Part shown: positions 19,429 through 42,990 of the stretch, piece after piece
Layout of the letters: every line of letters begins with the position of its first letter
Numbering within the stretch: position 1 is the first letter of the stretch
Source: an uncultured Thiotrichales bacterium
Lineage (GTDB): Bacteria > Pseudomonadota > Gammaproteobacteria > UBA4575
Length of the DNA: 64,000 nt
Direction of reading: 5' to 3'
Assembly: GCA_964614915.1 (NCBI GenBank)
Contig: CAZTNC010000011.1
Location: forward strand, 280,705 to 344,704
Made by a program: the position numbers and the translations under genes
The notes under the pieces: generated by a model
Databases searched by the model: none
What the model saw: the letters and a program-made list of their open reading frames with translations, nothing else
Told to the model about the DNA's origin: nothing

Positions 19429-19468
19429 TCCCGAATAAGGAAGTGCGCGGGCACAGCGCCCGGCACGT

Positions 19469-27647: not shown

Positions 27648-30600
27648 GTGAAACCGGATAGCCCGCACGATGCCAAGTTATCTCCCGGTCCCGAGGGAGA
27701 TGTGCGAAAACCAGAGAGCTTGATCTCCAGCCCGCCGATCGCCATCGTGGGCATGGCCTGCCGGTTCCCGGGTGCACCGGACCTTGCAGCTTTCTGGCAC
27801 TTGCTGGACAGCGGAGGAAATGCCATCACGCAGGCAGAGCCCGGTACTGGGGTCGATCGCGTGGATGCATTGTTCCCGGACGATGCGGTGCGCAGCCCGG
27901 CCTGCCAGTTCGGGGGATTCGTGGAAGACATCGACCGCTTCGATGCCGCGTTCTTCCGGATTTCACCCGTCGAAGCCCAGATGCTTGACCCGCAACAGCG
28001 AATGATGCTGGAGACGAGCTGGCATGCACTTGAGGATGCGGGCATCGATCCGGAGTGCCTAAAGGGTAGCCGCACAGGGGTCTATACCGGTATCAGCACG
28101 GACGAGTACCGCATGATGGTGCTGAATTCCGCACGGCCTGAAGAGGCCGCCGGATGCCTCTATGCCCTGAGCGGTACCAACATGAACGGCGCTGCGGGGC
28201 GGGTCTCTTTCATACTGGGATTGATGGGTCCCGCAAAAGCGGTGGATGCTGCCTGCGCTTCTTCGCTGGTTTCCGTACACGATGCAGTCGCTGATCTTCA
28301 GCAAGGCAAGGCAGACCTGGCAATCGCCGGCGGGGTGCATACCATGCTCAACGGCCGTGTATACGAATTGCGGGCGGACTCGATGATGCTGTCCCCGGAT
28401 GGGCAATGCAAGGCTTTTGATGCCTCTGCCAATGGCTACGTGCGAGGCGAAGGGTGCGGTGTGGTAATCCTCAAGCGCCTGAGCGAGGCACAGGCGGCCG
28501 GGGACCGAATCTGGGCCGTGATCCGGGGGGCTGCGGTCAATCATGGCGGTGCCAGTTCGGGGCTCACGGTGCCGAATACGCCGGCACTTGAGGCCGTAAT
28601 CGAGGAGGCCCTGACACACGCGGGAATGTCCGCATCGATGGTGGACTACCTTGAGGCGCACGGCACCGGAACTACGGTGGGCGACCCGATCGAACTCAAT
28701 GCTGCTGCCGTGGCTTACGGCCGAGGGCGCAGGGACGATCGCCCACTCCTGGTAGGCTCGGTCAAGACCAACATCGGTCATCTGGAAGCGGCGGCCGGCG
28801 TGGCCGGGCTGATCAAGGCGGCCCTGGTGGTGCATCGCGGCATGATCCCAATGCACCTGCATTTCCACAACCCGAATCCGAGTCTCGACTGGGATCGCCT
28901 GCCGCTTCGCGTGATTACAGACAATCTGCTGTGGCCGTATGCCACCGATGAGCCGCGCCGCGCCGGTGTGAACTCCTTCGGGATCTCCGGGACGAATGCT
29001 CATATCATTCTTGAACAGTACGGCGCAGGGCCCGCGGTGTCCGAGTCCACACTGCAACCCGTAGGCCTGGCTCAGGCAGTTGCCACAACCTTGCCGCAGA
29101 CTGTAGCGGAGTGTCGCGATCAGGCATTTGTGAAACGTACTTCGCGCCTGTTGCCGCTCTCGGCCAAGAGCGAGCCAGCGCTGCATGCGTTGGCAGAGCG
29201 TTACCTGTCCTGGCTCGATCAACAGCAAGCGGCTCAGCCGGATCCAGCCACGGAGGATGAGCAGCTGGCCAATCTTGCCTGGACGGCTTCGATCGGGCGC
29301 AGCCACTTCGATTACCGCGCAGGCCTGGCATTCACCGACGTGGCTTCCTTGCAGCAGCAGTTGAAGAAGTTGGTAAAGGCAGATGGACTGACCCATACAC
29401 GCTCACTGAAGGTCGCATTTGCCTACACCGGACAAGGCAGTCAGTGGCCGGGTATGGGTCAAGTACTTTATGAGCGTGAACCAGTGGTGCGGGCTGTACT
29501 GGACCGTTGCGAGAGCGTGTTTTTCGAGCAGCGGGGCGCCTTGCTTCTGGATGTGATGTTCAATCGCCCGGGTGCTCGTGGTGCCCTGGAAGATACCGCT
29601 TGGGAGCAGCCAGCGCTGTATGCACTCGAATGTGCGTTGACTGCTCTTTGGGCCAGCCTCGGGGTTCGCCCTGCCATTGTGTTAGGACATAGTGTCGGCG
29701 AGCTTGCAGCCGCGCAGGCCGCAGGCGTGTTCAGCCTTGAAGACGGAATGCGGTTTGCCGAAGCCAGGGGCCGACTGCTCTCCCGAACCGCAGAAGGCGC
29801 TATGGCCGCAGTGTTTGCGCCGGCACAACAGGTGGTTTCCGCCGTCGCCAAGCGAAACAAGGAAACGGATGGGGACGCGCTTTGCATCTCAGGCTATAAC
29901 GGCCTTCATCAGGTGATCAGCGGTCCGATTCCGGAAGTGCAATGCCTTCTTGAGCGTTTCGATTCTGAAGGTATTCGCACCCGGCGGTTGAACACGGCCC
30001 GAGCCTTTCACAGTGCCCTGGTGGAGCCGGTTCTCGATGACTTGGAGGCCTCCCTGGAGGGTGTGGCATTCGAGTCGCCTTCTGTGGAAGTGATCAGCAA
30101 TCTGACCGGTGTGGCTGTGGGACCTGGCGAAACACTGGATGCGAAATACTGGAGACGTCATGCGCGCGAGGCAGTCGCCTTTGCCGAGGGGGTTTGCACC
30201 TTGTCCGGCCTTGACGTGGACCTGGTAGTGGAAATCGGCCCGGGCAAAATCCTGGCACCGATGCTGGCCTCGGCTTGGCCGGACTCGACGCGGACTGCAC
30301 CCCCTGGCATATCGAGTCTTCAGGCGCCCTCGGCCTCAGCACCAGAACCAAATTCAGATGCAGGATTTCTACAGGCGGTCGCGAAGGTCTACGAGGCCGG
30401 ACTGCCTGTTCATTTTGAGGGACTTTTTGCAGGCGAGTTACGTGCCAGGATTTCACTGCCTCAATATCCGTTCCAGCGAGAGCGCCACTGGATGGAAACT
30501 CCGCGCAAGCACCGGCGTGAAAAGGGTCACCCGCTACTCGGGGTCCGGCACGAATCGGCCACTGGCGGGATTACATACGAGACACAGTTGTACGCCACCG

Positions 30601-33600
30601 ATCCGGCCTGGCTGGGGGATCACCGGGTATTCGAGCGCATCGTGGTCCCCGGTGCGGTCTATGGCGCGATGGCGGCTCTGGCCTCCCTGGCCGAGGGTGC
30701 TCCACATGCCACGGTGGGGGATATGCAGCTGCACAATGCGATGATCGTCCCGGAAGCGGCCCCTGACGATGGCATGGCAGAACCGGGTGCGACCCTGCAG
30801 CTCATGCTGGGCGAGGAGGAAGTCGGTGCACGGCCTATGCGTGTGTTCAGCAAGGGCGATGAAGGAGACTGGATCCTGCATGCGGAAGGACGCATTGGAA
30901 CAGGTGCCTCCTCCCCCCAGGCACCGGAGCGAATCGACCTTCAGGCACTGGCAGAAAACCTGTCCGTGATGGAGGTGTCGGACTATTACCGTGCCCGGGC
31001 TGAAACAGGAATTGGACTGGGTCCGTCGTTTCGAACGCTGACCAAGATTTGGGCTGCACCCGGTGAAGCCCTGGCAGAGGTGTCGGTCCCGGAAGACCTG
31101 GGCGGTACCGGACTGGGCGTGCATCCACTGGTACTTGACGGCTGCTTCCAGGTCGTGGGTGCGGCACGGGGCCTTGGCGGGATGCAGGGCTCAACGACCT
31201 ACCTGCCCTTCGGCTGGGAGCAGCTATGGCTGGCCGGTCCGCTTCCCCAAAAGGTGTTCTGCCATGTGCGCATGAATGCTGCGGCTGTGCAATCCGAGGA
31301 AGCCCCTGCCGAGGCACCCGAGGTGCAAAGTGGTGAGGTGTACATTTACGATGCCAACGGGATGCTGATCGGTGGCTTGAGCGGCTACACCGTGAAGCGG
31401 GCCGAGCGCTCGGCGATGCTTTCAGCATTGGAAGGTACTGATGATTTGCTGTACGAGGTGGTATGGCGTGAATGCGCTCTTGCCTCTGGACTGGAAGCTG
31501 CGGACTTCTTCCCCGAACCGGCTTCGGTCAAGGATAGTACCCGACTGTTCTCCGAGTATCTGAAGGATGCCGGGGTAGGGCCCGAAGACCGGGACGCCCT
31601 GCTTTCGGAACTCGAGCACTGGTCATGGGCCTATGCGCTCGCGAACCTGGACCGGTTGGGATGGCAGCGTGTGGCCGGCGAAACCGTCGACCCGGATGCA
31701 TTGCGCCAGCAACTGAACGTGAGCGCAGATCACAGGCGTTTGTTTCGCCGAATGCTCGAGATGCTGACCCGGTGCGAGGTGCTGGAAGAGATCGATGACG
31801 GCTTTCTCGTGTTGTCGGGGTCCAAGGATGCGTGGCCAAAGGGGCTTGTCGAGGATCCTGAGGCCCATGCGGAAACAATGGCCGAGCGGTTTCCCCATGG
31901 GCTGACCGAGGTCGGATTATTTCGGCGCTCCGGAAGCGCATTGGCTGATGTTCTGCGGGGTCAGGCCGATCCCCTGACACTGTTGTTCAGCAGTGGCGAG
32001 CCTACTGCAGCCGACCTGTATCTTCGAGCTCCGGTAGCCCGTGCAGCCAACCGAATGCTTGGTGAAGCGGTCCGTACGCTTGTCGGTGCGCTTCCTGCCG
32101 GGCGGCGTCTGCGGGTGATCGAGGTGGGTGCGGGTACGGGTTCGGCGACGGCATCCGTGTTGCCGGAACTGCCGCAGGGACAGTTCGAATACACCTATAC
32201 GGATATCTCGGCGGGCTTTTTCGCAGAAGCGGAGGCACGCTTTGGGGACGGCGGTGGCCACATTGATTATCGACCGCTGGATATCGAGAAAGACCCTCAG
32301 GATCAGGGCTTCGAGGTGCACGGCTATGATTTGCTGATCGCATCCAACGTACTTCATGCGACACGCCTGTTGCCAGAGACGCTGGCCCACTGCCTGAAGC
32401 TCCTCGCCCCTTCCGGACAGTTGATCGCACTTGAGAACCTTCGCGGCCAGGGTTGGATGGACCTGACTTTCGGACAACTGGATGGCTGGTGGCGCTTCGC
32501 CGATGACTACCGCCCACACCATGCGCTGGCCAACCCTGCGGTGTGGCGTCAGGCACTTGGTGATGCCGGTTTTGATGCGATCGAGATTCTGGGCGTGGAC
32601 GAGTCGGAGACAGCCAAACTTCCGGATCGGGGTGTAATTGTGGCCCGTGGCCCCGCCCGGGTGCATGAAGCTCCGGGCATGTGGGTTCTGATGGCGGATG
32701 AGGGTGGGACCGCTACACATCTAGCGCACGAGCTTGCAGATCGCAATCAGACGGTCGTGCTGGCAGGTCCCGGTTTTGACAAGGCTGCCGATTTCAAGGT
32801 ATCCGGCGCCGGTGTGCATGAGGTGTACGTGGATGCGATACGGCGCGAGACTTGGCAGCAACTTGTGGAGCACCTGCCAGGCGACCTGCCCTTCAGCGGG
32901 GTGGTGCATTTTGCAGGACTCGACGGGCATGGCATGCAGGCGAGTACCGCAGAAATTGCAGAGGATGTCGAGCGCACGGGGGCGAGCGCACTGGCCCTGG
33001 TGCAGGGCGTGGCTGATTCGGTCCGTGAGCCTGCCAAGGGCATCTGGTTAATCACGCGGGGTGCACAGATTCTGGAGCGAGAACGCGGCGGGGAACTTGC
33101 CGGTGCGATCCTGTGGGGTTTCGGCAAGGCCGTGGACCGCGAGGCGGCGCACCTGCAACCGCGGATGATCGACCTTGACCCGCAACCCGAAGCCTCACCA
33201 CCCGATCTGGCCAATGAACTGCTGTATCCTGATGTCGAAAACCACATTGCCTATCGCTTGGGTCGACGGCAGGTCGCGCGCCTGGTCCGCTTTGCGGATG
33301 GGCCAGCGCGCCTGGCACTGCCGAAGACGCCGGACTGGGTGCTGGCACCGGATCCAGGCGGCACATTCGATCGCCCCTGCGTGCAGTCCCTGGCTGCGCG
33401 CCCGCTGGAACCCAGGGAAGTGCGTGTCGAGGTCGATGCTGCGGGTCTGAACTTCTGGGATGTGTTCCGCTCCCTCGGGTTTATTGAGGAGGGATTGCTT
33501 GGCCGGGAGATGTGCGGACGTGTCATCGAGACCGGCTCCGAAGTGAGCAGCGCGATTACCGGTAAGCGCGTGATTGGACTTGGCTTCGGCGCCTTTGGTC

Positions 33601-36600
33601 CGCAGATGATCACGCGAGAGGAACTCGTCTCTGCTGCCCCTTCGGGGTATTCGGTCACCGAACTGGCGACGGTGCCGAGCGCGTATGTCTCCGCGGCGCT
33701 CTCCTATGAACTTTCCGGACTGCAGGCCGGCGAGCGCGTATTGATTCATGCCGGTGCCGGCGGGGTGGGCCTTGCGGCCATCCAGCTTGCCCAGGCCGCA
33801 GGGGCCGAAGTATTCGCCACAGCAAGCATTCCCAAACAGGTATACCTCAGATCACTGGGAGTGAAGCATCTGTTTGACAGTCGCACGACCGCCTTCGGGG
33901 AACAGATCCTCGAAGTGACCGGTGGAGCCGGCGTGGACGTGGTGCTGAATAGCCTGACGAGCGAGGGATTTATTGATGCCAGCCTGTCCTGCCTGCGCCA
34001 GGGAGGCCGGTTCGTGGAACTGGCCCGCAGGGACATCCTGAGTCCAGAGGAGATGGCAGCGGTGCGCCCGGATGTGGGTTATGACATTCTGGAACTCGAT
34101 GTCTTGAAAAAGACGGATCCGGCGTGGGTCGGGCGGGTGTTGGACGATGTTACGAGACAGCTCGCTTCAGGCGAAATCGGGCCGATCGTGCACAGCCGGT
34201 GGCCTCTGGCTGAAGCGGGAGCTGCCTTGCGGTTCATGCGGTCTGCCCGTCATCTGGGAAAGATTGTTGTCACGGCACCGCCGCTGGCGACAGGCAGGCT
34301 GCGCCAGGACGCCACCTACCTTGTAACCGGTGGGCTGGGCGGTATCGGCCTTGCCGTGGCTGACTGGCTGGTCGGGCAGGGTGCCGGGACCCTTGTGCTG
34401 AATGGACGCCGCAGCCCGGATGCCGAGGCCGAGGCCGCGATCCAGGAGCTTCGCGAACGCGGGGCATCGATCCACGTAGAGATTGCGGATGTGACGGATG
34501 CCGCGGCAATGGACCGGATGATGTCGCGCATCGACCAGGAATTGCCGCCCCTGGCCGGTGTGATTCACAGTGTCGGGGTGCTGTCGGATGGTGCTCTGAC
34601 AAACCAGAACTGGGAGCGATTCGAACAGGTGCTGTGGCCAAAGATCCTGGGCGCCTGGCACCTGCACCGCTCAACGCTGGATCGTGACCTCGACTTCTTC
34701 ATTCTTTTTTCAAGCCGTGTTGGTGTGATGGGGAATCCGGGTCAGGCGAACCACGCTGCAGCCAATGCCTTTCTGGACCAGTTGGCCGGTCATCGCCGCG
34801 CTCTTGGGCTTGCCGGGCAGGCGATTGCCTGGGGTGCGTGGTCCGAGATCGGCGAAGCTGCGGAGCAAAAAGACCGCATCGAACGCCAGCGCTCTGCACT
34901 GGGCGGGCGCTGGTTCACTCCGCAGCAAGGTCTCAAGGCCCTTGAACGGCTGGTACGCCAGGATGTTACGACCTCCGTGGTGATGTCGATGGACTGGTCC
35001 GTGTTTGAAAAGGCTGTTGGTGCGCGACCTCCGTTTCTTGAGGAGATGCTTGTGACGGACGACGAGACCGAAGCCGGTGCTGTGGCCTCGTCGGCCGATG
35101 TGATGGCCCGACTGCAGCAAACCCCGGCCTCTGAACGGGGCCGCCTGCTAGAGTCGTATCTGCAGGGAGAGGTGCAGGCGGTGCTGCGCTTGCCTTCGGC
35201 TCCGGAGCCCGCCGTCGGATTTTTCGACCTCGGTATGGATTCCCTGATGGCCGTAGAACTGCGAAACCGTCTGAACCGGGCCTTCTCGGATGAGTACACT
35301 GCCTCCAACACGGTGGTGTTCGACTACCCGGACATCATCTCGCTGGCCCGCCACCTGTCCGAGGAACTGGGTGAAGTCGAGGAGGCCCCCGCACCCCAGC
35401 CCCAGCCAGCACCGGTGTCTGCATCCGAAGATGCAACGACCGAGGGCGGCATTGCGATTATCGGCATGGCCTGCCGGTTCCCGGGTGCCCGCAATCTTTC
35501 CGAATTCTGGCAGATCCTCGATGAGGGCCGCGAAACCGTGAGTGACCGGCGCGAGGACACTGGTTCGTGGGACGGGGTGTTGGGAGATCCTGCCAAGCCC
35601 GATGACGGCTACCAGCGTGGCGGGTTCATCGAGGGGATCGATCGCTTCGATGCTCGTTTTTTCGGCATTCGGCCGATCGAAGCCCACGCCATGGATCCGC
35701 AGCAGCGGATGCTGCTCGAGACGAGCTGGCACGCCCTTGAGGATGCCGGTATTGATCCTGAGCGTTTGCGAGGCAGTCCCACCGGAGTTTATGCCGGCAT
35801 TGCCTCCAGCGAATACCGGGACTTGATGGTGGACAGTGGCGGCCCCAGCTATCTAGGCACAGCAGGAAGTATGGCGGTCGGGCGTGTCTCGTTTTGCCTG
35901 GGCCTGGAAGGACCGACCATGCCGGTCATGCTCAACTGCGCTTCATCTCTGGTTGCCATACATCATGCCGTAGTGAGCTTGCGCCAGGGCGAGGCGGACT
36001 TGGCGTTGGCTGGCGGAGTCAACGCGATCCTTTCGAACGGGCTGACCCGTGAACTCGCTGAACTCGGGATGCTGTCGCGTGATGGACGATGCAAGACGTT
36101 CAATGCCTCGGCGGACGGGTTTGTACGCAGTGAAGGTTGCGGAATGGTTGTCCTCAAGCGCCTGAGCGAGGCGCAGGCGGATGGCGATCGAATCTGGGGC
36201 GTGATCCGTGGCTCGGCTATCAACCACAGTGGGGCGAGTGCAGGGCCCACTGTGCCCACGGGTCCAACGAAGGAACGGGTCATCGAGGAGGCGCTTGCCG
36301 GGACAGGTGTCTCGCCACACGAAGTGGACTATCTTGAGGCGCACGGAGGTGGCTCGGAGTTGGGTGATTCAATTGAGGTCAATGCTTCTGCAAGGGTCTA
36401 TGGGCGAGGGCGCGAGGCAGAGGATCCCCTGTTGATTGGTTCGGTGAAAACGAACCTCGGACACCTGGAATCCGCTGCCGGCATTGCAGCACTCATCAAG
36501 ACGGTGTTGGCAATGGATCGGCGCAGGATCCCTCAACACCTGCATTTTCATGACCCGAACCCGCACATGGACTGGGAGCAGTTACCGGTGAAGGTGGTCT

Positions 36601-37289
36601 CGGAGGCCATGGACTGGCCTCGGCATGAGGGCCGGCCTGCGCGTGCAGGGGTCAGTGCATTTGGAATCTCGGGAACCAATGCCCATGTGGTGGTCGAAGA
36701 GTATCCGGCGCCGGAGGATACTCCGTACCCAGACCGTACACGATCTTTCCCTGCAGGGAATGCTCAACAGGTCACATCGCCCCTGTCGGACTCACCCCAG
36801 GAGACTCCCTCTGAAATACCTGCACCGGACGAGCGAAAGATCCGCCTGCTGCCGCTTTCTGGAAAGTCTCTAGTCGTTCTTGGGGAGCTGGCCGAAGCGT
36901 ATCTTGCCTGGCTTGATGCGCACTCGGAGGAGCTTTCGGGTGATGACAGTGCATCCGGCCCACTGCTTTCGGATATGGCATGGACGGCCAGCACGGGACG
37001 TGCGCACTTCGATCATCGGGCGGGTATCCTGTTCAGTGATGCGGCCTCGCTCCGGGCTCAACTTCAGTCACTTGCCAGGGGCACTGGCAAAGAGGTGGCT
37101 GCAGCAGCGAACGCAGACTCCCGCAATGGGAAAACGGATGAAGTACATGCCTTCATGCTGGAAGTGGCAGAAGCCTACGAGGCAGGGCGTGCGGTTTCGC
37201 TTGCAGGTCTTTTTGAGGGCGAGATGCGCCGGCGAATTTCCGTACCAGACTATCCATTTGAGCGGAAGAGGTTTTGGGTCAAGGCCTGA
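27648..37289 (+). CDS. Type I highly reducing polyketide synthase, 3213 aa: KS-AT-DH-cMT-ER-KR-ACP-KS(-AT-less linker)
   Basis: KS1 active Cys203 (DAACASS), HGTGT, NIGH. AT GHSVGE (Ser682) and AFHS. DH HxxxGxxxxP at His992. Class I methyltransferase VIEVGAGTG near aa 1490. ER (medium-chain dehydrogenase-like GAGGVGLAAIQLA). KR YLVTGGLGGIG. ACP GMDSL (Ser2532). Second KS Cys2764 (NCASS), EAHGGGS, NLGH. Terminates after an AT-less linker. GTG start. Confidence 0.9.
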   Translation: MKPDSPHDAKLSPGPEGDVRKPESLISSPPIAIVGMACRFPGAPDLAAFWHLLDSGGNAITQAEPGTGVDRVDALFPDDAVRSPACQFGGFVEDIDRFDAAFFRISPVEAQMLDPQQRMMLETSWHALEDAGIDPECLKGSRTGVYTGISTDEYRMMVLNSARPEEAAGCLYALSGTNMNGAAGRVSFILGLMGPAKAVDAACASSLVSVHDAVADLQQGKADLAIAGGVHTMLNGRVYELRADSMMLSPDGQCKAFDASANGYVRGEGCGVVILKRLSEAQAAGDRIWAVIRGAAVNHGGASSGLTVPNTPALEAVIEEALTHAGMSASMVDYLEAHGTGTTVGDPIELNAAAVAYGRGRRDDRPLLVGSVKTNIGHLEAAAGVAGLIKAALVVHRGMIPMHLHFHNPNPSLDWDRLPLRVITDNLLWPYATDEPRRAGVNSFGISGTNAHIILEQYGAGPAVSESTLQPVGLAQAVATTLPQTVAECRDQAFVKRTSRLLPLSAKSEPALHALAERYLSWLDQQQAAQPDPATEDEQLANLAWTASIGRSHFDYRAGLAFTDVASLQQQLKKLVKADGLTHTRSLKVAFAYTGQGSQWPGMGQVLYEREPVVRAVLDRCESVFFEQRGALLLDVMFNRPGARGALEDTAWEQPALYALECALTALWASLGVRPAIVLGHSVGELAAAQAAGVFSLEDGMRFAEARGRLLSRTAEGAMAAVFAPAQQVVSAVAKRNKETDGDALCISGYNGLHQVISGPIPEVQCLLERFDSEGIRTRRLNTARAFHSALVEPVLDDLEASLEGVAFESPSVEVISNLTGVAVGPGETLDAKYWRRHAREAVAFAEGVCTLSGLDVDLVVEIGPGKILAPMLASAWPDSTRTAPPGISSLQAPSASAPEPNSDAGFLQAVAKVYEAGLPVHFEGLFAGELRARISLPQYPFQRERHWMETPRKHRREKGHPLLGVRHESATGGITYETQLYATDPAWLGDHRVFERIVVPGAVYGAMAALASLAEGAPHATVGDMQLHNAMIVPEAAPDDGMAEPGATLQLMLGEEEVGARPMRVFSKGDEGDWILHAEGRIGTGASSPQAPERIDLQALAENLSVMEVSDYYRARAETGIGLGPSFRTLTKIWAAPGEALAEVSVPEDLGGTGLGVHPLVLDGCFQVVGAARGLGGMQGSTTYLPFGWEQLWLAGPLPQKVFCHVRMNAAAVQSEEAPAEAPEVQSGEVYIYDANGMLIGGLSGYTVKRAERSAMLSALEGTDDLLYEVVWRECALASGLEAADFFPEPASVKDSTRLFSEYLKDAGVGPEDRDALLSELEHWSWAYALANLDRLGWQRVAGETVDPDALRQQLNVSADHRRLFRRMLEMLTRCEVLEEIDDGFLVLSGSKDAWPKGLVEDPEAHAETMAERFPHGLTEVGLFRRSGSALADVLRGQADPLTLLFSSGEPTAADLYLRAPVARAANRMLGEAVRTLVGALPAGRRLRVIEVGAGTGSATASVLPELPQGQFEYTYTDISAGFFAEAEARFGDGGGHIDYRPLDIEKDPQDQGFEVHGYDLLIASNVLHATRLLPETLAHCLKLLAPSGQLIALENLRGQGWMDLTFGQLDGWWRFADDYRPHHALANPAVWRQALGDAGFDAIEILGVDESETAKLPDRGVIVARGPARVHEAPGMWVLMADEGGTATHLAHELADRNQTVVLAGPGFDKAADFKVSGAGVHEVYVDAIRRETWQQLVEHLPGDLPFSGVVHFAGLDGHGMQASTAEIAEDVERTGASALALVQGVADSVREPAKGIWLITRGAQILERERGGELAGAILWGFGKAVDREAAHLQPRMIDLDPQPEASPPDLANELLYPDVENHIAYRLGRRQVARLVRFADGPARLALPKTPDWVLAPDPGGTFDRPCVQSLAARPLEPREVRVEVDAAGLNFWDVFRSLGFIEEGLLGREMCGRVIETGSEVSSAITGKRVIGLGFGAFGPQMITREELVSAAPSGYSVTELATVPSAYVSAALSYELSGLQAGERVLIHAGAGGVGLAAIQLAQAAGAEVFATASIPKQVYLRSLGVKHLFDSRTTAFGEQILEVTGGAGVDVVLNSLTSEGFIDASLSCLRQGGRFVELARRDILSPEEMAAVRPDVGYDILELDVLKKTDPAWVGRVLDDVTRQLASGEIGPIVHSRWPLAEAGAALRFMRSARHLGKIVVTAPPLATGRLRQDATYLVTGGLGGIGLAVADWLVGQGAGTLVLNGRRSPDAEAEAAIQELRERGASIHVEIADVTDAAAMDRMMSRIDQELPPLAGVIHSVGVLSDGALTNQNWERFEQVLWPKILGAWHLHRSTLDRDLDFFILFSSRVGVMGNPGQANHAAANAFLDQLAGHRRALGLAGQAIAWGAWSEIGEAAEQKDRIERQRSALGGRWFTPQQGLKALERLVRQDVTTSVVMSMDWSVFEKAVGARPPFLEEMLVTDDETEAGAVASSADVMARLQQTPASERGRLLESYLQGEVQAVLRLPSAPEPAVGFFDLGMDSLMAVELRNRLNRAFSDEYTASNTVVFDYPDIISLARHLSEELGEVEEAPAPQPQPAPVSASEDATTEGGIAIIGMACRFPGARNLSEFWQILDEGRETVSDRREDTGSWDGVLGDPAKPDDGYQRGGFIEGIDRFDARFFGIRPIEAHAMDPQQRMLLETSWHALEDAGIDPERLRGSPTGVYAGIASSEYRDLMVDSGGPSYLGTAGSMAVGRVSFCLGLEGPTMPVMLNCASSLVAIHHAVVSLRQGEADLALAGGVNAILSNGLTRELAELGMLSRDGRCKTFNASADGFVRSEGCGMVVLKRLSEAQADGDRIWGVIRGSAINHSGASAGPTVPTGPTKERVIEEALAGTGVSPHEVDYLEAHGGGSELGDSIEVNASARVYGRGREAEDPLLIGSVKTNLGHLESAAGIAALIKTVLAMDRRRIPQHLHFHDPNPHMDWEQLPVKVVSEAMDWPRHEGRPARAGVSAFGISGTNAHVVVEEYPAPEDTPYPDRTRSFPAGNAQQVTSPLSDSPQETPSEIPAPDERKIRLLPLSGKSLVVLGELAEAYLAWLDAHSEELSGDDSASGPLLSDMAWTASTGRAHFDHRAGILFSDAASLRAQLQSLARGTGKEVAAAANADSRNGKTDEVHAFMLEVAEAYEAGRAVSLAGLFEGEMRRRISVPDYPFERKRFWVKA
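27738..29012 (+). other. PKS ketosynthase domain 1 (KS1)
   Basis: IAIVGMACRFPGA start. Cys203 at nt 28254-28256. HGTGT. NIGH. Confidence 0.8.
29415..30317 (+). other. PKS acyltransferase domain (malonyl-type inferred)
   Basis: GHSVGE at nt 29688-29705. AFHS motif (His-Ala-Phe-His-Ser pattern typical of malonyl-specific ATs). Confidence 0.7.
30525..31397 (+). other. PKS dehydratase domain
   Basis: HPLLGVRH...LGDHRVFERIVVPGAVY hot-dog motif. His992 at nt 30621. Confidence 0.7.
32055..32627 (+). other. PKS C-methyltransferase domain
   Basis: SAM motif I VIEVGAGTGSATA (nt 32115-32150). Motif II region LLIASNVLHAT. Catalytic competence not assessed. Confidence 0.6.
33390..34277 (+). other. PKS enoylreductase domain
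   Basis: MDR/quinone-oxidoreductase-like LIHAGAGGVGLAAIQLAQAAGAEVFATAS. Confidence 0.7.
34305..34847 (+). other. PKS ketoreductase domain
   Basis: YLVTGGLGGIGLAVADWL Rossmann motif and an SDR catalytic region. Confidence 0.7.
35145..35387 (+). other. PKS acyl carrier protein domain
   Basis: LGMDSLMAVELRNRL. Ser2532 at nt 35241-35243. Confidence 0.75.
35448..36737 (+). other. PKS ketosynthase domain 2 (terminal KS2, paralogous to KS1)
   Basis: IAIIGMACRFPGA. Cys2764 at nt 35937-35939. EAHGGGS variant of HGTGT. NLGH. About 70% nucleotide identity to the KS1 region. Confidence 0.75.
36738..37289 (+). other. C-terminal KS-AT linker remnant fused directly to a post-AT linker motif (no AT domain)
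   Basis: LLPLSGKS...MAWTASTGRAHFDHRAGILF parallels the KS1-AT linker. The terminal ISVPDYPFERKRFW parallels ISLPQYPFQRERHW, which follows the AT. Confidence 0.6.
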
Positions 37290-37342
37290 CGCACTTCGAG
37301 ATCACGGGCCTGTTTTGACAGTTGTGGGTGCCACCGCCGCCT

Positions 37343-38239
37343 TCAGGCATCGGGCAACAGTTGCTGTTCCTGGAATTCTCGCACCGCAGATACACAGTCC
37401 ACCGGCTTTTCCAGTTGAAGAAGATGTGTGGTCTCAGGGATGAAATCATAATCGACAGTCAGGACATCGCTGAGATCGAAGGTTGGCAGATAGGCATACG
37501 GCAAGGTCGGGTCCGCCCCGATGACCTTCGTCGGACACGGGAGCGTCTCAAAGTCCACCAGCGGGGAAAAGCTTCGGACATAATCGGTGATTTGGGCTTC
37601 GTATTCGCGTGGGCAACGCAGCTCATACCCCAGCCCGTCGGGAACCTCGCGAAGCGTGGTCTTGGCCATGAGTTCCCGGACCCCGGGAACCACATGGGTG
37701 AAGGTCGGGATGTAGCTCAGGAAATCAGAAAATTCTTCCTCCGTCTGGAATCGGTATCCGCGTCGGCGCGTCAGCGATGCAGCGTGTTCGGCAGCCACGT
37801 CAAATTCGGTCTGGCTGGCACCAGGCTTGCATACGGGCGGGTCAAATAGAATCTGTGCAGAGCAGCTGTTGTCCTGCGGCGCCGAAAGCAGCGAGATCAG
37901 CGCTGAGACGGAGTGTAATACCCCGATCTTGGGTTTGTTGCCATAGTGGCGGTCGATGGATTCCAGTATCAGGGCATAATCCTGTATTAGTACGGGAACG
38001 TTGTGGTCGCGGCGCTCGCCCACGGAATTCCAGCCATGGTTTCTGAGGTCATAGAGGATTAGTTCGTAGTCCTCGGCAAGCAGCGACCAGAACGGGTAAT
38101 ACAGGTCAATGGCAAGACCGTTGCCGTGACAAAGCACAAGCCGAGGCCCTGACGGATTGCCGTGCTGTCGCAAGTGCGTGACTGTATTTTGATCCAGTCG
38201 GACTTCACGCACTGAGATTGGTTCAGGAATTTCCCACAT
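37343..38239 (-). CDS. Alpha/beta-hydrolase fold protein (thioesterase/lipase-like), convergent with the PKS
   Basis: HG oxyanion motif (LVLCHGNG). Nucleophile elbow GVLHSVSA. C-terminal His region. 298 aa. Confidence 0.6.
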   Translation of the reverse strand: MWEIPEPISVREVRLDQNTVTHLRQHGNPSGPRLVLCHGNGLAIDLYYPFWSLLAEDYELILYDLRNHGWNSVGERRDHNVPVLIQDYALILESIDRHYGNKPKIGVLHSVSALISLLSAPQDNSCSAQILFDPPVCKPGASQTEFDVAAEHAASLTRRRGYRFQTEEEFSDFLSYIPTFTHVVPGVRELMAKTTLREVPDGLGYELRCPREYEAQITDYVRSFSPLVDFETLPCPTKVIGADPTLPYAYLPTFDLSDVLTVDYDFIPETTHLLQLEKPVDCVSAVREFQEQQLLPDA

Positions 38240-38323
38240 GGTCCTTATGAGGTAAATCGTATTCTCGTTTTATCAGGTTCAAAAGGTTGGACCGAATCGC
38301 CTGGTTCATTCTCCAGGCCGGCA

Positions 38324-39061
38324 TCACCCCGGGTTAAGCTCGTGTGCCAGGGCTGCGGCAAAATTAGGGTCGTCCAGGGATTCAAGCCACCACCGGACTG
38401 TGGGCAGTTGAGGAAAGCAAAATTCGCCTGCACTCATCCCCTGGCGCAGGGTTTTCGGAATTTCGATTCCTGACATGTCCAGCGAGAATCCCGTACCCAG
38501 GGCCTTGAGTAATGCTTCTTTCATCGTCCACAGGCGGAAAAACAAGTGGATCTTTTGCGGGCCGCGGGCCGCGGCCAGGTCCGCGCGTTCATTCGGAGTA
38601 AATACCGACTGAATATCTCCATCCAGGTTCTGTTGCATGTTCCGTTCTTCCACGTCCACCCCGATACGCCCATGCAGGGCAAGTGCCACCAGCCCGTGCT
38701 GGTGGCTGTGGCTGACGTTGAAGCCGATACCTTTCGATTCTCCATCCACCAGGGCATGGGGTTTTCCGTATTTTGATGTCCCGAAGGCGAGTTGTTCGTT
38801 GCTGCAGTCGAGATGTTTGCAGAGAATCGCACGCAGAGCGGCACGGCACAAGCTGAATTCATACCGGGCACGGGCATGGCGAAACCGGCGCCAGCGTGCC
38901 TGTTCATTGTGATCCAACCACTCCAGCGCCTCGGCCTCACGAGTATCATGAGGCCGCAGGTCCACATGAAAAATTGTGGTATCCCGGGTTCTCCTGTACG
39001 GGCGCCACCAGTCCTTTGTCGCGGTAGCCGATTCCTTGTGCCTGCTCACCTTCACGGGCAC
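38324..39061 (-). CDS. 4'-phosphopantetheinyl transferase, Sfp/EntD type
   Basis: KYGKP, GFNVSHS, GVDVE and WTMKEALLKALG motifs. Confidence 0.8.
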   Translation of the reverse strand: MPVKVSRHKESATATKDWWRPYRRTRDTTIFHVDLRPHDTREAEALEWLDHNEQARWRRFRHARARYEFSLCRAALRAILCKHLDCSNEQLAFGTSKYGKPHALVDGESKGIGFNVSHSHQHGLVALALHGRIGVDVEERNMQQNLDGDIQSVFTPNERADLAAARGPQKIHLFFRLWTMKEALLKALGTGFSLDMSGIEIPKTLRQGMSAGEFCFPQLPTVRWWLESLDDPNFAAALAHELNPG

Positions 39062-39201
39062 AGGGTCAAGTCACGTTGTACAGTGCCCGGGTTGTCCATG
39101 ACCATCGCAGTGTCTGCGCTTGTCCCGGCCTGGGAACTGGGGCACACGTGCACCCCGATGTCCGGATGCAGTTCTGCCTACATCCCTGAACCGGAAAAGG
39201 T

Positions 39202-39432
39202 TTACCCGGAGTTCGAATCCAGATAGGAAGCCAGTTCCCGCAGAGACTGGAACTGGGAGAAATCTTCAGGAGGAATTGTCAACCCGAATTCCTGGCCGAC
39301 CTTCTTGATGAAGGCGACGGCATCCACTGAGGACACGCCAGAGTCACCAAACCCGGTGTCCATATCCGGTTCCCTGCCAATATCCAGATTTTCATTTGCT
39401 AGTGCCATGAGGCGGTCTTCTGTTGAGGACAT
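39202..39432 (-). CDS. Discrete acyl carrier protein
   Basis: 76 aa, acidic. GFGDSGVSSVDAV phosphopantetheine-attachment-like motif. Heads an ACP-PPTase-hydrolase operon. Confidence 0.65.
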   Translation of the reverse strand: MSSTEDRLMALANENLDIGREPDMDTGFGDSGVSSVDAVAFIKKVGQEFGLTIPPEDFSQFQSLRELASYLDSNSG

Positions 39433-39927
39433 GATGAAATTCTCCTGATTGTTTTAGTTGGTTTTTGGTGTAGACAGACCGGTATTTTAGGTGCAGGCAC
39501 GTTTTCAGACAAGGGCAGGTGTAAGTCGCCGATGAACCTGGGCAGGCATGCTACGGAATTGATCCCGGCCTGACCGCTGGCCGCATACGCTTCTCGAGGC
39601 ATACGTTCGAAATCCCTGCATTTTTTGAGCGCATTTTCGAACGGATTCAGCCGATCCGCGTCTATACCTATGTAGGCTGCTGTTGCTTCCTGACAGCACC
39701 TGTCCGCGTCATGACTTGTCCGGGGCTTTGACTTACAATGACAGAACAGGAAACTGCCTGGGTCGGGGAGCGCAGTCCATCTGAATTGATTTGTCAAGAT
39801 TGGCGGGAGTCCGTATGTCTGTACCGGTGAATAAGGAAGGAAGCCATGCGGCTTCGCCCGACCGTCCGGCCCTGGGTCCCGCCGCAAGCGAGATGATGTC
39901 AGGCGATCGCTTTCCCCTACAGGGCAC

Positions 39928-42372
39928 ATGGCCTATCTCCTGAAGCTTTTGCGCCTTGCGCTGGGGGCTTTTCTTGCCATCATCGTCGCAATACTGGCCA
40001 CCTACATATACTTGGCACCTTCCCTGCCCGGGGTGGCCGTGCTCAGGGATGTGGAACTGCAGGTGCCGCTCAAGGTGTACAGCCGGGACGGCAAGCTGAT
40101 TGCCGTGTATGGAGAACAAAGGCGTGAACCCCTGGGGGTGGATGAGATCCCGGAATTGCTGGTCCAGGCATTCCTTGCTGCAGAAGATGACCGCTTTTAC
40201 GAACACTTAGGCGTCGATTATCAGGGTCTGGCCCGTGCTGCACTTTATGTATTGCTGACCGGAGAAAAACGGCAGGGCGGCAGCACCGTCACGATGCAGT
40301 TGGCCCGGAACTTCTTTCTGGACAATGAGCGCACCTACCGACGCAAGCTCAAGGAAATTTTCCTGGCCCTGAGAATTGAGCACGAGTTCAACAAGAACGA
40401 AATCCTCGAACTGTACCTGAACAAGATCTACTTGGGGAACCGGGCCTACGGCGTGGGTGCGGCGGCCGAGGTCTATTACGGGCGCAGCGTGCATGATCTC
40501 AATCTAGCCCAGATTGCCATGATTGCAGGCCTGCCCAAGGCTCCTTCGAGGTTTAACCCGATTGTCAATCCCGAGCGTGCCGTCATCCGCCGCAATTATG
40601 TGCTTGGCAGAATGCACAAGCTTGAATTCATTGACGATGACACCTACCGCAAAATGCTGGATGAGCCGGTAAGCGCATCGGTCCACTACCCCCGGGTTGA
40701 GATGAATGCGCCGTACATTGGAGAGATGGCGCGCGCGCAGATGTTCGGGGAATACGGCTCCGAGGCCTATACCAAGGGTTACCGGGTGTACACGACGATC
40801 AACAGCAAACTCCAGCGCCAAGCCCAACTGGCCCTTAGAAAAGGGTTGCATGCCTACGACCGGCGTCATGGCTGGCGGGGTGCAAAATCCCATTTGGAAC
40901 TGGAGTTAACAGGCGATGACATGGACCAGATTGCGTTTGAAAAACTGGATGAGGTGATTCTGGGCATGGATCTGATCGGAGGGTTGATGCCGGCCGTGGT
41001 GACCCGGGTGGAGCCCTTGGAAATCGAGGTGTATCTGGGTGAGCAGCAGTTTGCCTTGGTGTCAATCGACCAGGCCAAGTGGGCTAGGCCTTACATCAGC
41101 GAAAATACCATGGGGGAGGTGCCGGAAGACTTCACCGGACTGCTTGCACCGGGGGATGTGATCCGGATTACCCGGGCAGATACCGGCAAATGGGCCCTCA
41201 GCCAGATTCCTGAGGCGGCCGGTGCCTTCGTGGCGATCGACCCGCAAAACGGCAGCGTACTGGCCCTGGTCGGCGGGTACGATTACCTGCACAGCAAGTT
41301 CAATCGCGTCACGCAGGCGAAACGCCAGCCCGGCTCAAGTTTCAAGCCGTTTATCTATTCGGCCGCGCTCGAGTCAGGCTTCACGCCAGCCAGCATTGTC
41401 AACGATGCGCCGGTGGTACATGACGGCAGCGGCCTGGAAAGTGCCTGGCGCCCCAAAAATTACAGCGGCAAGTTTTTCGGACCGACCCGCCTTCGCGAGG
41501 CCTTGGTGAAGTCCCGCAACATGGTTTCGATCCGCGTGCTGCGAAGCGTGGGTCACCGCTATACCGAGCAGCACATCACCAACTTCGGTTTTGGCCCGGA
41601 GCAACTGCCCCAGGGCTTGTCCCTGGCATTGGGTTCCGGTGTGGCGACGCCACTGGAGATGGCCCGCGGCTATGCAGTGTTTGCCAATGGCGGTCACTAC
41701 GTGGAACCGTTCGTGATTGAAAGGATAGAAGATGTCAGTGGTGAGGTCCTGTTTCGCTCCAGTCCACTCATGGTATGCGAGGCAGACTGTCTGGACCTAC
41801 AACAACAGTTGTACCAAAGCGTAGAGGAGGTCATCGGGGAGGATGGGGCCCCCGAACTGGGCATACGGGTCGCTGAGCGCGTGCTGTCCAAAGAGAACGC
41901 CTATCAGATGGTGAGCATGATGCATGATGTCATACAAAGTGGCACAGGCAGGCGTGCGCGCCAGTTGGGACGCAGTGATCTTGCTGGAAAAACAGGTACG
42001 ACGAACGAGCAGCGGGATGCATGGTTCTGCGGCTTCAACGGTGACATTGTTGCAATCTCCTGGGTGGGGTTTGATCAGCACAAGCCGCTCGGACGCAAGG
42101 AAGTCGGCAGTGTCACAGCGTTACCAATATGGATCGAGTTCATGCGTGCTGCCCTTCAGGGTAAACCGGAAAACAAGCTGAAGCGACCGGAGACAATCGT
42201 CAGTGTGCGTATCGATCCTGCCACTGGACAGCGGGTGGACCCGGGCAATGAACAGGGCATTGAGGAGACCTTCCGTATGGGGTATGTTCCGGCTGAAGGC
42301 TCCGGATCGGGTACACCGCCGGCATATCCGAGAAATGACCAGGGGATGGGAACTCCGGAACAGCTTTTTTAA
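39928..42372 (+). CDS. mrcA: Penicillin-binding protein 1A (bifunctional transglycosylase/transpeptidase)
   Basis: N-terminal TM helix. GT51 motifs (EDDRFYEH, RQGGSTVTMQLARN). Transpeptidase SxxK region (SSFKPF), SRN and KTGTT. Confidence 0.9.
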   Translation: MAYLLKLLRLALGAFLAIIVAILATYIYLAPSLPGVAVLRDVELQVPLKVYSRDGKLIAVYGEQRREPLGVDEIPELLVQAFLAAEDDRFYEHLGVDYQGLARAALYVLLTGEKRQGGSTVTMQLARNFFLDNERTYRRKLKEIFLALRIEHEFNKNEILELYLNKIYLGNRAYGVGAAAEVYYGRSVHDLNLAQIAMIAGLPKAPSRFNPIVNPERAVIRRNYVLGRMHKLEFIDDDTYRKMLDEPVSASVHYPRVEMNAPYIGEMARAQMFGEYGSEAYTKGYRVYTTINSKLQRQAQLALRKGLHAYDRRHGWRGAKSHLELELTGDDMDQIAFEKLDEVILGMDLIGGLMPAVVTRVEPLEIEVYLGEQQFALVSIDQAKWARPYISENTMGEVPEDFTGLLAPGDVIRITRADTGKWALSQIPEAAGAFVAIDPQNGSVLALVGGYDYLHSKFNRVTQAKRQPGSSFKPFIYSAALESGFTPASIVNDAPVVHDGSGLESAWRPKNYSGKFFGPTRLREALVKSRNMVSIRVLRSVGHRYTEQHITNFGFGPEQLPQGLSLALGSGVATPLEMARGYAVFANGGHYVEPFVIERIEDVSGEVLFRSSPLMVCEADCLDLQQQLYQSVEEVIGEDGAPELGIRVAERVLSKENAYQMVSMMHDVIQSGTGRRARQLGRSDLAGKTGTTNEQRDAWFCGFNGDIVAISWVGFDQHKPLGRKEVGSVTALPIWIEFMRAALQGKPENKLKRPETIVSVRIDPATGQRVDPGNEQGIEETFRMGYVPAEGSGSGTPPAYPRNDQGMGTPEQLF

Positions 42373-42378: not shown

Positions 42379-42990
42379 GTGGCTGTAAGAAAACAGGACC
42401 GGCTTCGGGAGAAGCTTGCCCAAGAGGCTGCCAGAATCATTGTCAGCGAAGGGGTGCACGACTACCAGAAAGCCAAGTGCAAGGCTCGCGAGCGCCTGCA
42501 TGCACTGCAGGGCGTGGCGCTGCCCAGCAATGTCGAGATCGAGTCCGCCATCCGTTCATTTACACGGACTTTTTTGCCGGACCATGAGGGGATCCTTCGA
42601 AACTTGCGATGTACGGCACTGACCGTGATGAACTGGCTGACTCCGTATCACCCCTACCTGACAGGTCCCGTGCTGGAAGGTACCGCAGGTGCAAAAACGC
42701 CGATCAGCCTGCACGTCTCCTGTGACTGCCCAGAAGAAGTTCTGGCGGTGCTGCAGCAACGCGGCCTGGTAGTGCGGCTGGCAGACCGTCATTTCAAGCA
42801 AAACCGCCATTACACCTGCCTGCCCGTTCTGGTGTTCACGTATCGCGAGCATGAAATTGATGTCACGATTTTCAGCTTGCGCCAGCAGCACCAGCCTCCG
42901 AAAAGCAAGACGCATCACCGCAGTGCTCAAAGAATGAACGGAAAGGCGCTGGCCAGCCTGCTGGGGCAAGCCCGCAGCAAGGCTCTGTAA
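42379..42990 (+). CDS. Conserved hypothetical protein co-transcribed with mrcA
   Basis: 203-aa ORF 7 bp after the mrcA stop. No family recognised. Confidence 0.4.
   Translation: MAVRKQDRLREKLAQEAARIIVSEGVHDYQKAKCKARERLHALQGVALPSNVEIESAIRSFTRTFLPDHEGILRNLRCTALTVMNWLTPYHPYLTGPVLEGTAGAKTPISLHVSCDCPEEVLAVLQQRGLVVRLADRHFKQNRHYTCLPVLVFTYREHEIDVTIFSLRQQHQPPKSKTHHRSAQRMNGKALASLLGQARSKAL

What the first reader, a model, noticed from the sequence alone, without database searches (positions are those of the whole stretch)
27648..39432. Accessory PKS locus: KS-AT-DH-cMT-ER-KR-ACP-KS megasynthase with convergent ACP-PPTase-hydrolase operon
A 9.6-kb single gene encodes a fully reducing, C-methylating iterative-type module followed by a second KS. 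The facing operon provides a discrete carrier protein, a dedicated Sfp-type PPTase and an alpha/beta hydrolase, the likely release enzyme. The domain set predicts a saturated, methyl-branched long-chain acyl product (mycocerosate-like lipid), possibly extended once more by KS2 on the free ACP. I know of no characterised bacterial system with this exact architecture.
Basis: partly seen in the sequence, partly recalled or inferred. Interest (0 to 1): 0.8.

Follow-up and report, generated by a model that had tools for sequence, protein, structure and literature searches.

The report
Sponge-symbiont "Sup" methyl-branching lipid synthase
The locus is real, but it belongs to the long-known and still uncharacterised "Sup" polyketide synthase clusters of sponge-symbiont bacteria, which are thought to make methyl-branched fatty acids, so it is a new member of a known kind rather than a new architecture.

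Summary
One 3213-aa gene (27648-37289, +) encodes KS-AT-DH-cMT-ER-KR-ACP-KS. It converges on an operon for a 76-aa ACP, an Sfp-type PPTase and an alpha/beta hydrolase (39432-37343, -).

The novelty claim does not hold. The window comes from an uncultured gammaproteobacterial MAG. The same PKS+hydrolase(+ACP, +/-PPTase, +/-permease) cassette occurs in at least 586 GTDB species across about ten phyla; the 80 best matches are all MAGs. This fits the Sup ("sponge symbiont ubiquitous PKS") family, described in 2007 and proposed to make mid-chain methyl-branched fatty acids. No product has been demonstrated.

All catalytic motifs are intact and conserved in 54 homologues. It is therefore not a pseudo-domain synthase, and not PUFA, hgl or MAS type. 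The AT motif is RAFH (malonyl), not HAFH.

New details:
- KS2 is a copy of KS1 plus its linkers, with the AT core deleted.
- The KR catalytic Tyr is an invariant His, a variant strongly associated with cMT-containing modules in other PKSs.
- The cassette sits at one conserved site in five related species but has been swapped for a different Sup subtype in two of them.

Likely function: make a 2-methylacyl chain, then extend it once with KS2 onto the free ACP for hand-over to fatty-acid synthesis.

The parts
27648..37289 (+). supA-like type I PKS, 3213 aa: KS1-AT-DH-cMT-ER-KR-ACP-KS2-(AT-less linker)
   Evidence: Pfam. NCBIfam NF045894 scores 1895 bits, above its cutoff. The exact protein is in NCBI. 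54 full-length homologues were aligned.
27729..29027 (+). KS1 (res 28-460), with C203/H338/H378 and DPQQ and HGTGT motifs
   Evidence: The triad is conserved in every homologue that covers the region.
29400..30287 (+). AT (res 585-880), with GHSVG, R707 and RAFH: malonyl type
   Evidence: The family shows GHS[LVI]G and xA[FY]H.
30510..31427 (+). DH (res 955-1260), with H992...P1001 and D1164xxxQ1168
   Evidence: His, Pro, Asp and Gln are invariant in 54/54.
31845..32747 (+). C-methyltransferase (res 1400-1700), with ExGxGxG, NVLHAT (H1570) and E1596
   Evidence: invariant. The closest solved relative is the CurJ cMT, 5thy, E 6e-66, with the motifs aligned.
33345..34283 (+). ER (res 1900-2212), with the HAGAGGVG NADPH motif
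34290..34907 (+). KR (res 2215-2420), with GGxGxxG, K2332, S2355 and N2373 kept; the catalytic Tyr position is His2369
35130..35372 (+). Integrated ACP (res 2495-2575), LGMDS2532L
   Evidence: invariant.
35430..36737 (+). KS2 (res 2595-3030), with C2764/H2899/H2939 and HGxGS instead of HGTGT; 58% identical to KS1
36738..37286 (+). C-terminal tail: KS-AT linker plus post-AT linker (ends YPFERKRFW), with the AT core missing
   Evidence: tail is collinear with res 455-590 and 870-960 of module 1. (no GHSxGE in 120 family fragments, nearly all of which end at this motif).
37343..38239 (-). Alpha/beta hydrolase (298 aa) with HGNG, S110 (FHSxS), D243 and H272; probable supD equivalent
   Evidence: 63-97% identical across phyla. 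Linked to a SupA-type PKS in 67/67 loci with full flanks.
38324..39061 (-). Sfp/HetI-type 4'-phosphopantetheinyl transferase (245 aa) with FNVSHS, GVD and WTMKE motifs
39202..39432 (-). Discrete AcpP-like carrier protein (76 aa) with the conserved Ser in G(V/I)SS(V/L/M)D
   Evidence: Homologues carry PF00550.
39433..39927 (.). Divergent intergenic region between the ACP operon and PBP1A. One weak sigma-70-like match lies at 39512-39484 (-).
   Evidence: This is not above chance: 2 sites found against 3.8 expected.

Best explanation
This is a Sup-type ('sponge symbiont ubiquitous PKS') lipid cassette in an uncultured gammaproteobacterium.

Proposed mechanism:
1. (Inferred) The Sfp-type PPTase converts the integrated ACP (S2532) and the discrete ACP to their holo forms.
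2. (Inferred from motifs) The malonyl-specific AT loads malonate.
3. (Inferred from intact motifs) KS1, which has no loading module, is primed by a pre-made fatty acyl thioester and condenses it with malonyl-ACP. The cMT methylates C-alpha of the beta-ketoacyl-ACP with SAM. KR (His-type), DH and ER then reduce it fully to a 2-methylacyl-ACP.
4. (Inferred) The chain passes to KS2. KS2 is condensation-competent and AT-less, and it has no carrier of its own downstream. It condenses the chain with malonate on the free AcpP-like ACP, giving 4-methyl-3-oxoacyl-ACP.
5. (Most speculative) This intermediate is finished and elongated by the housekeeping type II fatty-acid synthase, giving a mid-chain methyl-branched fatty acid. 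The conserved Ser-Asp-His hydrolase releases or transfers it.
For: Architecture and accessory genes.

All catalytic residues are conserved in 54 full-length homologues from about ten phyla, and the KR, ACP, cMT, ER and both KS domains are 67-75% identical on average, which points to purifying selection.

KS2 keeps Cys-His-His, so it can catalyse decarboxylative condensation. Its tail is a KS-AT linker with the AT core removed, and the protein ends there in nearly all of 120 family fragments.

The discrete ACP lies next to the hydrolase in 52/67 loci. Its best matches are to AcpP families.

Hydrolase and PKS are linked in 67/67 hydrolase-selected loci with full flanks, and in 4 of 6 PKS-selected loci, plus an Abhydrolase_1 fragment in a fifth.

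Organism and family: the window proteins sit on an NCBI MAG contig. Relatives are MAGs of Gammaproteobacteria, Nitrospirales, Latescibacterota, Acidobacteriota, Spirochaetia, Alphaproteobacteria and others.

Literature: Sup enzymes are small monomodular PKSs that dominate HMA sponge metagenomes and are proposed to make mid-chain-branched fatty acids (PMC4245539). SupE is a permease (PMC3908369), and a Xan_ur permease adjoins the cassette in 17/67 loci. SUP families occur in Proteobacteria, Chloroflexota, Spirochaetota and Acidobacteriota MAGs (PMC9426513).
Against: No product of any Sup cluster has been shown.

The primary Sup paper (PMC1855645) is not in the library. The exact published SupA domain order and the sup gene names therefore rest on my memory, and no reference SupA sequence could be compared.

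Record titles do not name a sponge host.

Nothing in the sequence distinguishes one round of extension from iteration.

The starter, the enzyme that loads malonate on the free ACP, and the hand-over to FAS II are all inferred.

The KR lacks the canonical catalytic Tyr, so full reduction is assumed rather than shown.

About 22% of loci show no discrete ACP within 10 kb, and the window has no permease.
Confidence: 0.6

Rival explanations
1. Iterative, mycocerosate-like synthase. Module 1 cycles several times, methylating at each round, and gives a multi-methyl-branched saturated acid. KS2 adds a last unit on the free ACP and the hydrolase releases the product.
For: There is a single complete fully reducing module with no loading module or TE. 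The closest solved relatives of the ER-KR region are mycocerosic acid synthases. Monomodular PKSs are often iterative (PMC3908369 argues this for SwfA).
Against: MAS builds branches from methylmalonyl-CoA, and has no cMT and no terminal KS. The NCBIfam Pks2 and Pks13 models score far below their cutoffs. The sponge lipids the literature links to Sup are mono-methyl, mid-chain-branched acids (PMC4245539). A dedicated second KS with its own carrier is unnecessary for a purely iterative synthase.
Confidence: 0.25
2. The KS2 product is the end point. The 4-methyl-3-oxoacyl-ACP is hydrolysed by the alpha/beta hydrolase, and the beta-keto acid decarboxylates to a methyl-branched methyl ketone or is passed to another acceptor. 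It does not enter fatty-acid synthesis.
For: No reductive domains follow KS2. The hydrolase is the accessory gene most tightly linked to the PKS and is unusually conserved, at 63-97% identity across phyla. It has no close solved relative, so its chemistry is open.
Against: The free ACP is AcpP-like. It is missing from about a fifth of loci, which suggests that housekeeping AcpP can substitute, and this fits hand-over to FAS II. No ketone lipid class is linked to Sup in the papers read.
Confidence: 0.1
3. A PUFA-synthase (Pfa) or heterocyst-glycolipid (Hgl) type locus, or a decaying relic with pseudo-MT/ER domains.
For: There are partial hits to the PfaA and HetI models.
Against: PfaA scores 565 bits against a cutoff of 1010, and HetI 101 against 370. 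There are no tandem ACPs, FabA-type DH or CLF. The cMT, ER and all other active sites are invariant in 54 homologues. The cMT aligns along its full length with the active CurJ cMT. The frame is open over 9.6 kb.
Confidence: 0.02

Closest known systems
Sup ('sponge symbiont ubiquitous PKS') clusters: supA plus accessory genes (Fieseler et al. 2007; Hochmuth et al. 2010)
   Same: Both have a small monomodular type I PKS with a C-methyltransferase and a full reductive loop. Both are found in many phyla of uncultured symbionts and are proposed to make methyl-branched fatty acids (PMC4245539, PMC9426513). A permease is associated with the cluster, called SupE in PMC3908369, and appears in related loci here. 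KS1 carries the DPQQ and HGTGT motifs targeted by the primers that amplify supA (PMC4245539).
   Different: The window cassette has no permease, and its accessory genes converge on the PKS rather than following it on the same strand. No reference SupA sequence could be compared directly.
Swf (sponge widespread FAS) clusters: SwfA KS-AT-DH-ER-KR-ACP, SwfB (R+ST), SwfC (radical SAM)
   Same: Both are monomodular, FAS-like and specific to sponge symbionts, and neither has a known product (PMC3908369).
   Different: SwfA has no cMT and no terminal KS, lacks DPQQ, and has HATGT. Its partners are a reductase-sulfotransferase and a radical SAM enzyme, not ACP, PPTase and hydrolase (PMC3908369, compared).
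Mycocerosic acid synthase (MAS) and MAS-like PKSs of mycobacteria
   Same: Both have a single fully reducing module that extends a fatty-acyl primer to a methyl-branched acid. MAS is the closest solved structure for the ER-KR region.
   Different: MAS takes its branches from methylmalonyl-CoA, has no cMT or second KS, and has a Tyr-type KR. The NCBIfam Pks2 and Pks13 models score below cutoff.
CurJ/JamJ-type cis-AT modules with an embedded cMT
   Same: The cMT lies between DH and ER/KR in both. The window cMT is most similar to the CurJ cMT (5thy, E 6e-66).
   Different: Those are modules of long assembly lines. Here the module stands alone and ends in an AT-less KS.
Split modules of trans-AT PKSs (a C-terminal KS whose carrier lies on the next protein)
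   Same: KS2 is AT-less and sits at the C-terminus, and its probable carrier is a separate protein.
   Different: KS2 derives from a cis-AT KS-AT didomain: it is 58% identical to KS1 and keeps both linkers. No trans-AT gene is present.

Membership tests
Sup PKS cluster | Small, monomodular type I PKS (a single complete module) | tested here: met
   There is one KS-AT-DH-cMT-ER-KR-ACP module plus a terminal KS. The definition comes from PMC4245539.
Sup PKS cluster | FAS-like reductive loop plus a methyltransferase, predicting a methyl-branched saturated chain | tested here: met
   The cMT, KR, DH and ER motifs are intact and invariant. The MBFA proposal is in PMC4245539. The published domain order is recalled from memory only.
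Sup PKS cluster | KS falls in the sponge-specific Sup clade together with reference SupA sequences | not tested
   No reference SupA sequence was available. Named hits are generic MAG annotations. Indirect support only: the nearest relatives come from the phyla reported to carry SUP families (PMC9426513).
Sup PKS cluster | Carried by symbionts of high-microbial-abundance sponges | tested here: inconclusive
   The window and all 80 best loci are MAGs. Titles do not give the host. That bin names such as SB06xx_bin and 'Nitrospira sp. bin75' are Aplysina aerophoba bins is my recollection. The adjacent sterol/SMT operon matches clusters reported from A. aerophoba symbionts (PMC10070321).
Sup PKS cluster | Accessory genes next to supA (ACP, PPTase, hydrolase, SupE permease). 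These are accessory rather than strictly defining. | tested here: met
   ACP, PPTase and hydrolase are present. The permease is absent from the window but adjoins 17/67 related loci and L001, L083, L084 and L085. SupE as a permease comes from PMC3908369.
PUFA synthase (PfaA) / heterocyst glycolipid synthase | PfaA-type multidomain protein with tandem ACPs, CLF and FabA-like DH; HetI PPTase | tested here: not met
   TIGR02813 scores 565 against 1010 and NF042922 scores 101 against 370. Only a single ACP is present, and no CLF or FabA DH.
Mycocerosic acid synthase-like PKS | Methylmalonyl-specific AT, no cMT, KS-AT-DH-ER-KR-ACP only | tested here: not met
   The AT has GHSVG/RAFH, which is malonyl type. 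A cMT and a second KS are present. Pks2 scores 1344 against 2400.
Sfp-type (group II) PPTase | About 230 aa, two-domain, with (F/I)N(V/L)SHS, GxD and (W/F)xxKE motifs | tested here: met
   PF22624 and PF01648 both hit. FNVSHS is at 114, GVD at 134 and WTMKE at 178.

The most novel reading that the evidence does not exclude
Two linked ideas remain open.

(1) The invariant His in place of the KR catalytic Tyr is not a defect. It may mark a KR subtype co-adapted to C-methylating modules. Among 150 unrelated-cluster PKS representatives, cMT modules carry KR-His 10:2, while other modules carry KR-Tyr 304:5. Such a KR might gate ketoreduction until the cMT has acted.

(2) KS2, the free AcpP-like ACP and the hydrolase may form a dedicated device that injects a PKS-made methyl-branched primer into type II fatty-acid synthesis. 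If so, Sup would be a PKS-to-FAS interface rather than a secondary-metabolite synthase.
Probability: 0.25. Interest if true: 0.65.

Novelty: new member of a known kind. Interest (0 to 1): 0.4.

Why it matters
Sup clusters are among the most abundant biosynthetic genes in sponge microbiomes. They have swamped PKS screens for nearly two decades, yet their product has never been shown.

This copy is compact: four genes and no permease. It sits in a gammaproteobacterial genome with a defined chromosomal context, which makes it a practical candidate for expression in E. coli.

The family-wide features found here give concrete, mutable hypotheses for how the system works:
- a condensation-competent, AT-less KS2
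- a His-type KR tied to cMT modules
- an extremely conserved hydrolase
- in-situ exchange of cassette subtypes

Mid-chain methyl-branched fatty acids are also used as sponge and bacterial biomarkers. The same contig carries a sterol side-chain methylation operon, which is relevant to the sponge-biomarker debate.

Tried and rejected
- The full-length PKS search in the 5.8-billion-protein database timed out. I used the ACP-KS2, hydrolase and KS1 segments instead. None returned a hit named SupA.
- The exact-match contig look-up for the hydrolase found nothing, although the exact sequence is in the collection.
- The primary Sup papers (PMC1855645, PMC3105677) are not held. Several literature searches gave no paper that states the SupA domain order.
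- The AlphaFold model of the hydrolase was too poor to use: pLDDT 58 from a 25-sequence alignment of low diversity. I ran no fold search.
- The sequence search of the PDB with the hydrolase profile gave only generic alpha/beta hydrolases (best E 3.6e-5).
- The promoter and terminator scan was at chance level.
- Base composition and GC3 show no foreign-DNA signal.
- I rejected the PUFA/hgl, MAS-membership and pseudo-domain readings.
- A literature search for the KR Tyr-to-His variant found nothing relevant.
Full report
**What is there**

The window carries one uninterrupted 9.6-kb ORF (27648-37289, +). Its 3213-aa product is on record in NCBI with the same start.

Pfam places the domains in this order: KS, AT, DH, a class-I methyltransferase, a zinc-ADH-type ER, KR, a carrier domain and a second KS. 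After KS2 come KS-AT-linker families but no acyltransferase.

Three genes converge on its 3' end across a 53-bp gap, on the minus strand:
- an Abhydrolase_6 protein (37343-38239);
- a two-domain PPTase (38324-39061) with the Sfp-type motifs FNVSHS, GVD and WTMKE;
- a 76-aa AcpP-like carrier protein (39202-39432).

The flanks are housekeeping genes. On one side lie aroK-aroB, a dGTPase-like HD protein, and dnaG-rpoD. On the other lie PBP1A, hemE, tsaD and plsY.

**Are the domains functional?**

I aligned the window protein with 53 full-length homologues taken from GTDB genomes.
- Both ketosynthases keep the Cys-His-His triad: C203/H338/H378 in KS1 and C2764/H2899/H2939 in KS2.
- The AT has GHSVG, R707 and RAFH. 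The family pattern is GHS[LVI]G and xA[FY]H, which is malonyl type.
- The DH has H992...P1001 and D1164xxxQ1168.
- The cMT has ExGxGxG, NVLHAT and E1596, all invariant. It aligns end to end with the solved, active CurJ cMT (E 6e-66).
- The ER has the GGVG nucleotide motif.
- The carrier domain has LGMDSL.

It is not met: the PfaA, HetI, Pks2 and Pks13 models all score far below their cutoffs.

**What it belongs to**

Exact look-ups show that the window proteins lie on a 349-kb NCBI contig. Their 90% clusters are annotated 'MAG: Proteobacteria/Gammaproteobacteria bacterium'.

Searches with ACP-KS2, KS1 and the hydrolase return thousands of metagenomic relatives. Every named one is a MAG, from Gemmatimonadota, Nitrospira, Acidobacteriota, Latescibacteria, Chloroflexota, Rhodospirillales and others.

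The 80 best are all MAGs, from about ten phyla. Of these, 67 loci had full 10-kb flanks:

| Feature found within 10 kb of the hydrolase | Loci (of 67) |
|---|---|
| KS2-type KS | 67 |
| cMT | 66 |
| discrete ACP | 52 |
| PPTase | 23 |
| Xan_ur-family permease | 17 |

This sample was chosen through the hydrolase, so I also looked from the PKS side. Four of six PKS-selected loci carry the Abhydrolase_6 hydrolase (L001, L083, L084, L085). In L084 and L085 the order is PKS-ACP-PPTase-hydrolase, with a permease adjacent. One locus has no hydrolase within 10 kb. One low-coverage locus has only the ACP and an Abhydrolase_1 fragment.

This is the profile of the Sup clusters. The literature describes them as 'unusual, small monomodular polyketide synthases' that dominate KS amplicons from high-microbial-abundance sponges and are proposed to make mid-chain-branched fatty acids (PMC4245539). 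A permease is named SupE (PMC3908369). SUP gene-cluster families are reported in Proteobacteria, Chloroflexota, Spirochaetota and Acidobacteriota MAGs 'independent of bacterial taxonomy' (PMC9426513).

The primary description (Fieseler 2007) is not in the library. That SupA was published with this exact domain order, including the terminal KS, is my recollection and not a tested fact. I could not place KS1 in a tree with a reference SupA. I therefore file the locus as a Sup-type cluster with high but not complete confidence (about 0.85).

**New anatomical points**

*KS2 and its tail.* KS2 is 58% identical to KS1. Its 183-residue tail is collinear with the KS-AT linker and the post-AT linker of module 1, and it ends in the same YPF(Q/E)R(K/R)RxW motif. 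KS2 is thus a duplicated KS-AT didomain from which the AT core was excised. The 120 best family fragments lack a GHSxGE motif, and nearly all stop at that motif. KS2 is therefore condensation-competent but has neither an AT nor a carrier of its own. The free ACP is its obvious partner.

*The KR.* The KR is the best-conserved catalytic domain, at 74% mean identity. Even so, the catalytic Tyr of the SDR tetrad is His2369 (GQANHAAAN). This His aligns to the Tyr of MAS, SpnB and another modular KR. It is invariant in 54/54 full-length proteins and in 64/65 fragments. No other Tyr in the domain is invariant.

The variant is not confined to Sup. I analysed the 150 best 50%-identity representatives hit by this KR, using regex-defined domains:

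| Module type | KR-His | KR-Tyr |
|---|---|---|
| with a cMT motif | 10 | 2 |
| without a cMT motif | 5 | 304 |

Fisher's exact test gives p = 7e-14. The test is not corrected for shared ancestry, and the sample was chosen by similarity to a His-type KR. I read the His as a functional, cMT-associated KR subtype and not as an inactivation. Whether this is already known I could not establish.

*The hydrolase.* It is 63-97% identical across phyla. H38-G-N-G, S110, D243 and H272 are invariant. It has no close solved relative. The AlphaFold model was too uncertain to use.

**Evolution and context**

In five species-level gammaproteobacterial MAGs (L003-L007) the cassette sits at the same site: hemE-orf203-PBP1A-[ACP-PPTase-hydrolase]><SupA-aroK. 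Its GC and GC3 match the surrounding genes. In this lineage it is a resident locus, not a recent island.

However, PKS similarity does not track genome similarity:
- L005 and L006 have PBP1A and HemE about 90% identical to the window, as L004 does. Their SupA domains are only 47-76% identical to the window, and overall they fall below the 67% of its tenth-best match. Their closest SupA relatives are from Bryobacterales and Alphaproteobacteria (73%).
- L004 SupA is 83% identical to the window.
- L007 is more distant (PBP1A 71%) yet has a more window-like SupA.

The cassette has therefore been replaced in place by a different Sup subtype. This agrees with the taxonomy-independent distribution reported in the literature.

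**How it most likely works**

*Shown by sequence:* every catalytic site needed for one C-methylated, fully reduced extension is present; a second KS is condensation-competent; there are two carriers; and there is a dedicated PPTase and a Ser-Asp-His hydrolase.

*Inferred:*
1. KS1 is primed by a pre-formed acyl chain, since there is no loading module.
2. The module adds one malonate, methylates C-alpha and reduces fully, giving 2-methylacyl-ACP.
3. KS2 condenses this chain with malonate on the free AcpP-like ACP.
4. The 4-methyl-3-oxoacyl-ACP is completed by type II FAS into a mid-chain methyl-branched fatty acid.
5. The hydrolase releases or transfers it.

The discrete ACP is absent from about a fifth of loci. 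That fits a system that can also use housekeeping AcpP.

The main rival is iteration to a poly-methyl, mycocerosate-like acid. Sequence alone cannot exclude it. A second rival is release of the beta-keto product. I give the Sup assignment about 0.85, the one-round/FAS hand-over mechanism about 0.45, and the combined statement 0.6.

**Verdict**

It is a new member of a known, abundant and still uncharacterised family, not an unprecedented architecture. Interest is moderate. Its value lies in the open question of the Sup product and in the testable features listed above.

Noticed in passing
window 9620-20503: A complete bacterial sterol operon lies 7 kb upstream of the PKS. It comprises a FAD amine-oxidase-like gene (9620-11155, -), an SdmB-like NAD epimerase/3beta-HSD (11157-12395), an SdmA-like Rieske oxygenase (12392-13489), an ERG4/ERG24 sterol reductase (13476-14576), a P450 (14522-15991), a squalene epoxidase-oxidosqualene cyclase fusion (15988-19428) and a sterol methyltransferase with a Sterol_MT_C domain (19469-20503, -). 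It resembles the SMT/OSC clusters of Aplysina aerophoba symbionts tested in PMC10070321.
   Followed up: partly
window 15988-19428 (+): Squalene epoxidase (res 9-370) and oxidosqualene cyclase (res 480-1108) are encoded as one 1146-aa fusion protein. PMC10070321 does not mention a fusion: the word 'fusion' has no occurrence in it.
   Followed up: no
L003-L007 versus window 27648-42372: The Sup cassette occupies one conserved chromosomal site in five gammaproteobacterial species. In L005 and L006 it has been replaced by a different Sup subtype whose nearest relatives are in Bryobacterales and Alphaproteobacteria. Housekeeping genes are about 90% identical to the window, while SupA domains are 47-76% identical.
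   Followed up: yes
window 34752-34754 (His2369) and P0433-P0582: The KR catalytic Tyr is replaced by His. Across 150 PKS representatives this variant is strongly associated with modules that contain a cMT: 10:2 against 5:304.
   Followed up: partly
window 39399-39929 (-): A 176-aa ORF overlaps the start of the ACP gene and fills the ACP/PBP1A intergenic region. It has no Pfam or NCBIfam hit and is probably spurious.
   Followed up: partly
L086 1-2770 and 10001-13087: One metagenomic contig carries two SupA-like PKS genes within 10 kb of each other, a 3468-aa gene and a fragmented second copy, so some genomes hold tandem Sup paralogues.
   Followed up: no
P0001-P0120 (table): The precomputed Pfam lists show PF00698 (Acyl_transf_1) for many C-terminal Sup fragments that lack the GHSxGE active site. 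The hit comes from the AT-flanking linkers and could mislead automated architecture calls.
   Followed up: partly
window 42379-42990 (+): A 203-aa ORF with no Pfam family lies directly after PBP1A. It is conserved (65-94% identity) at the same position in L003-L007, so it is likely a real gene of unknown function.
   Followed up: no
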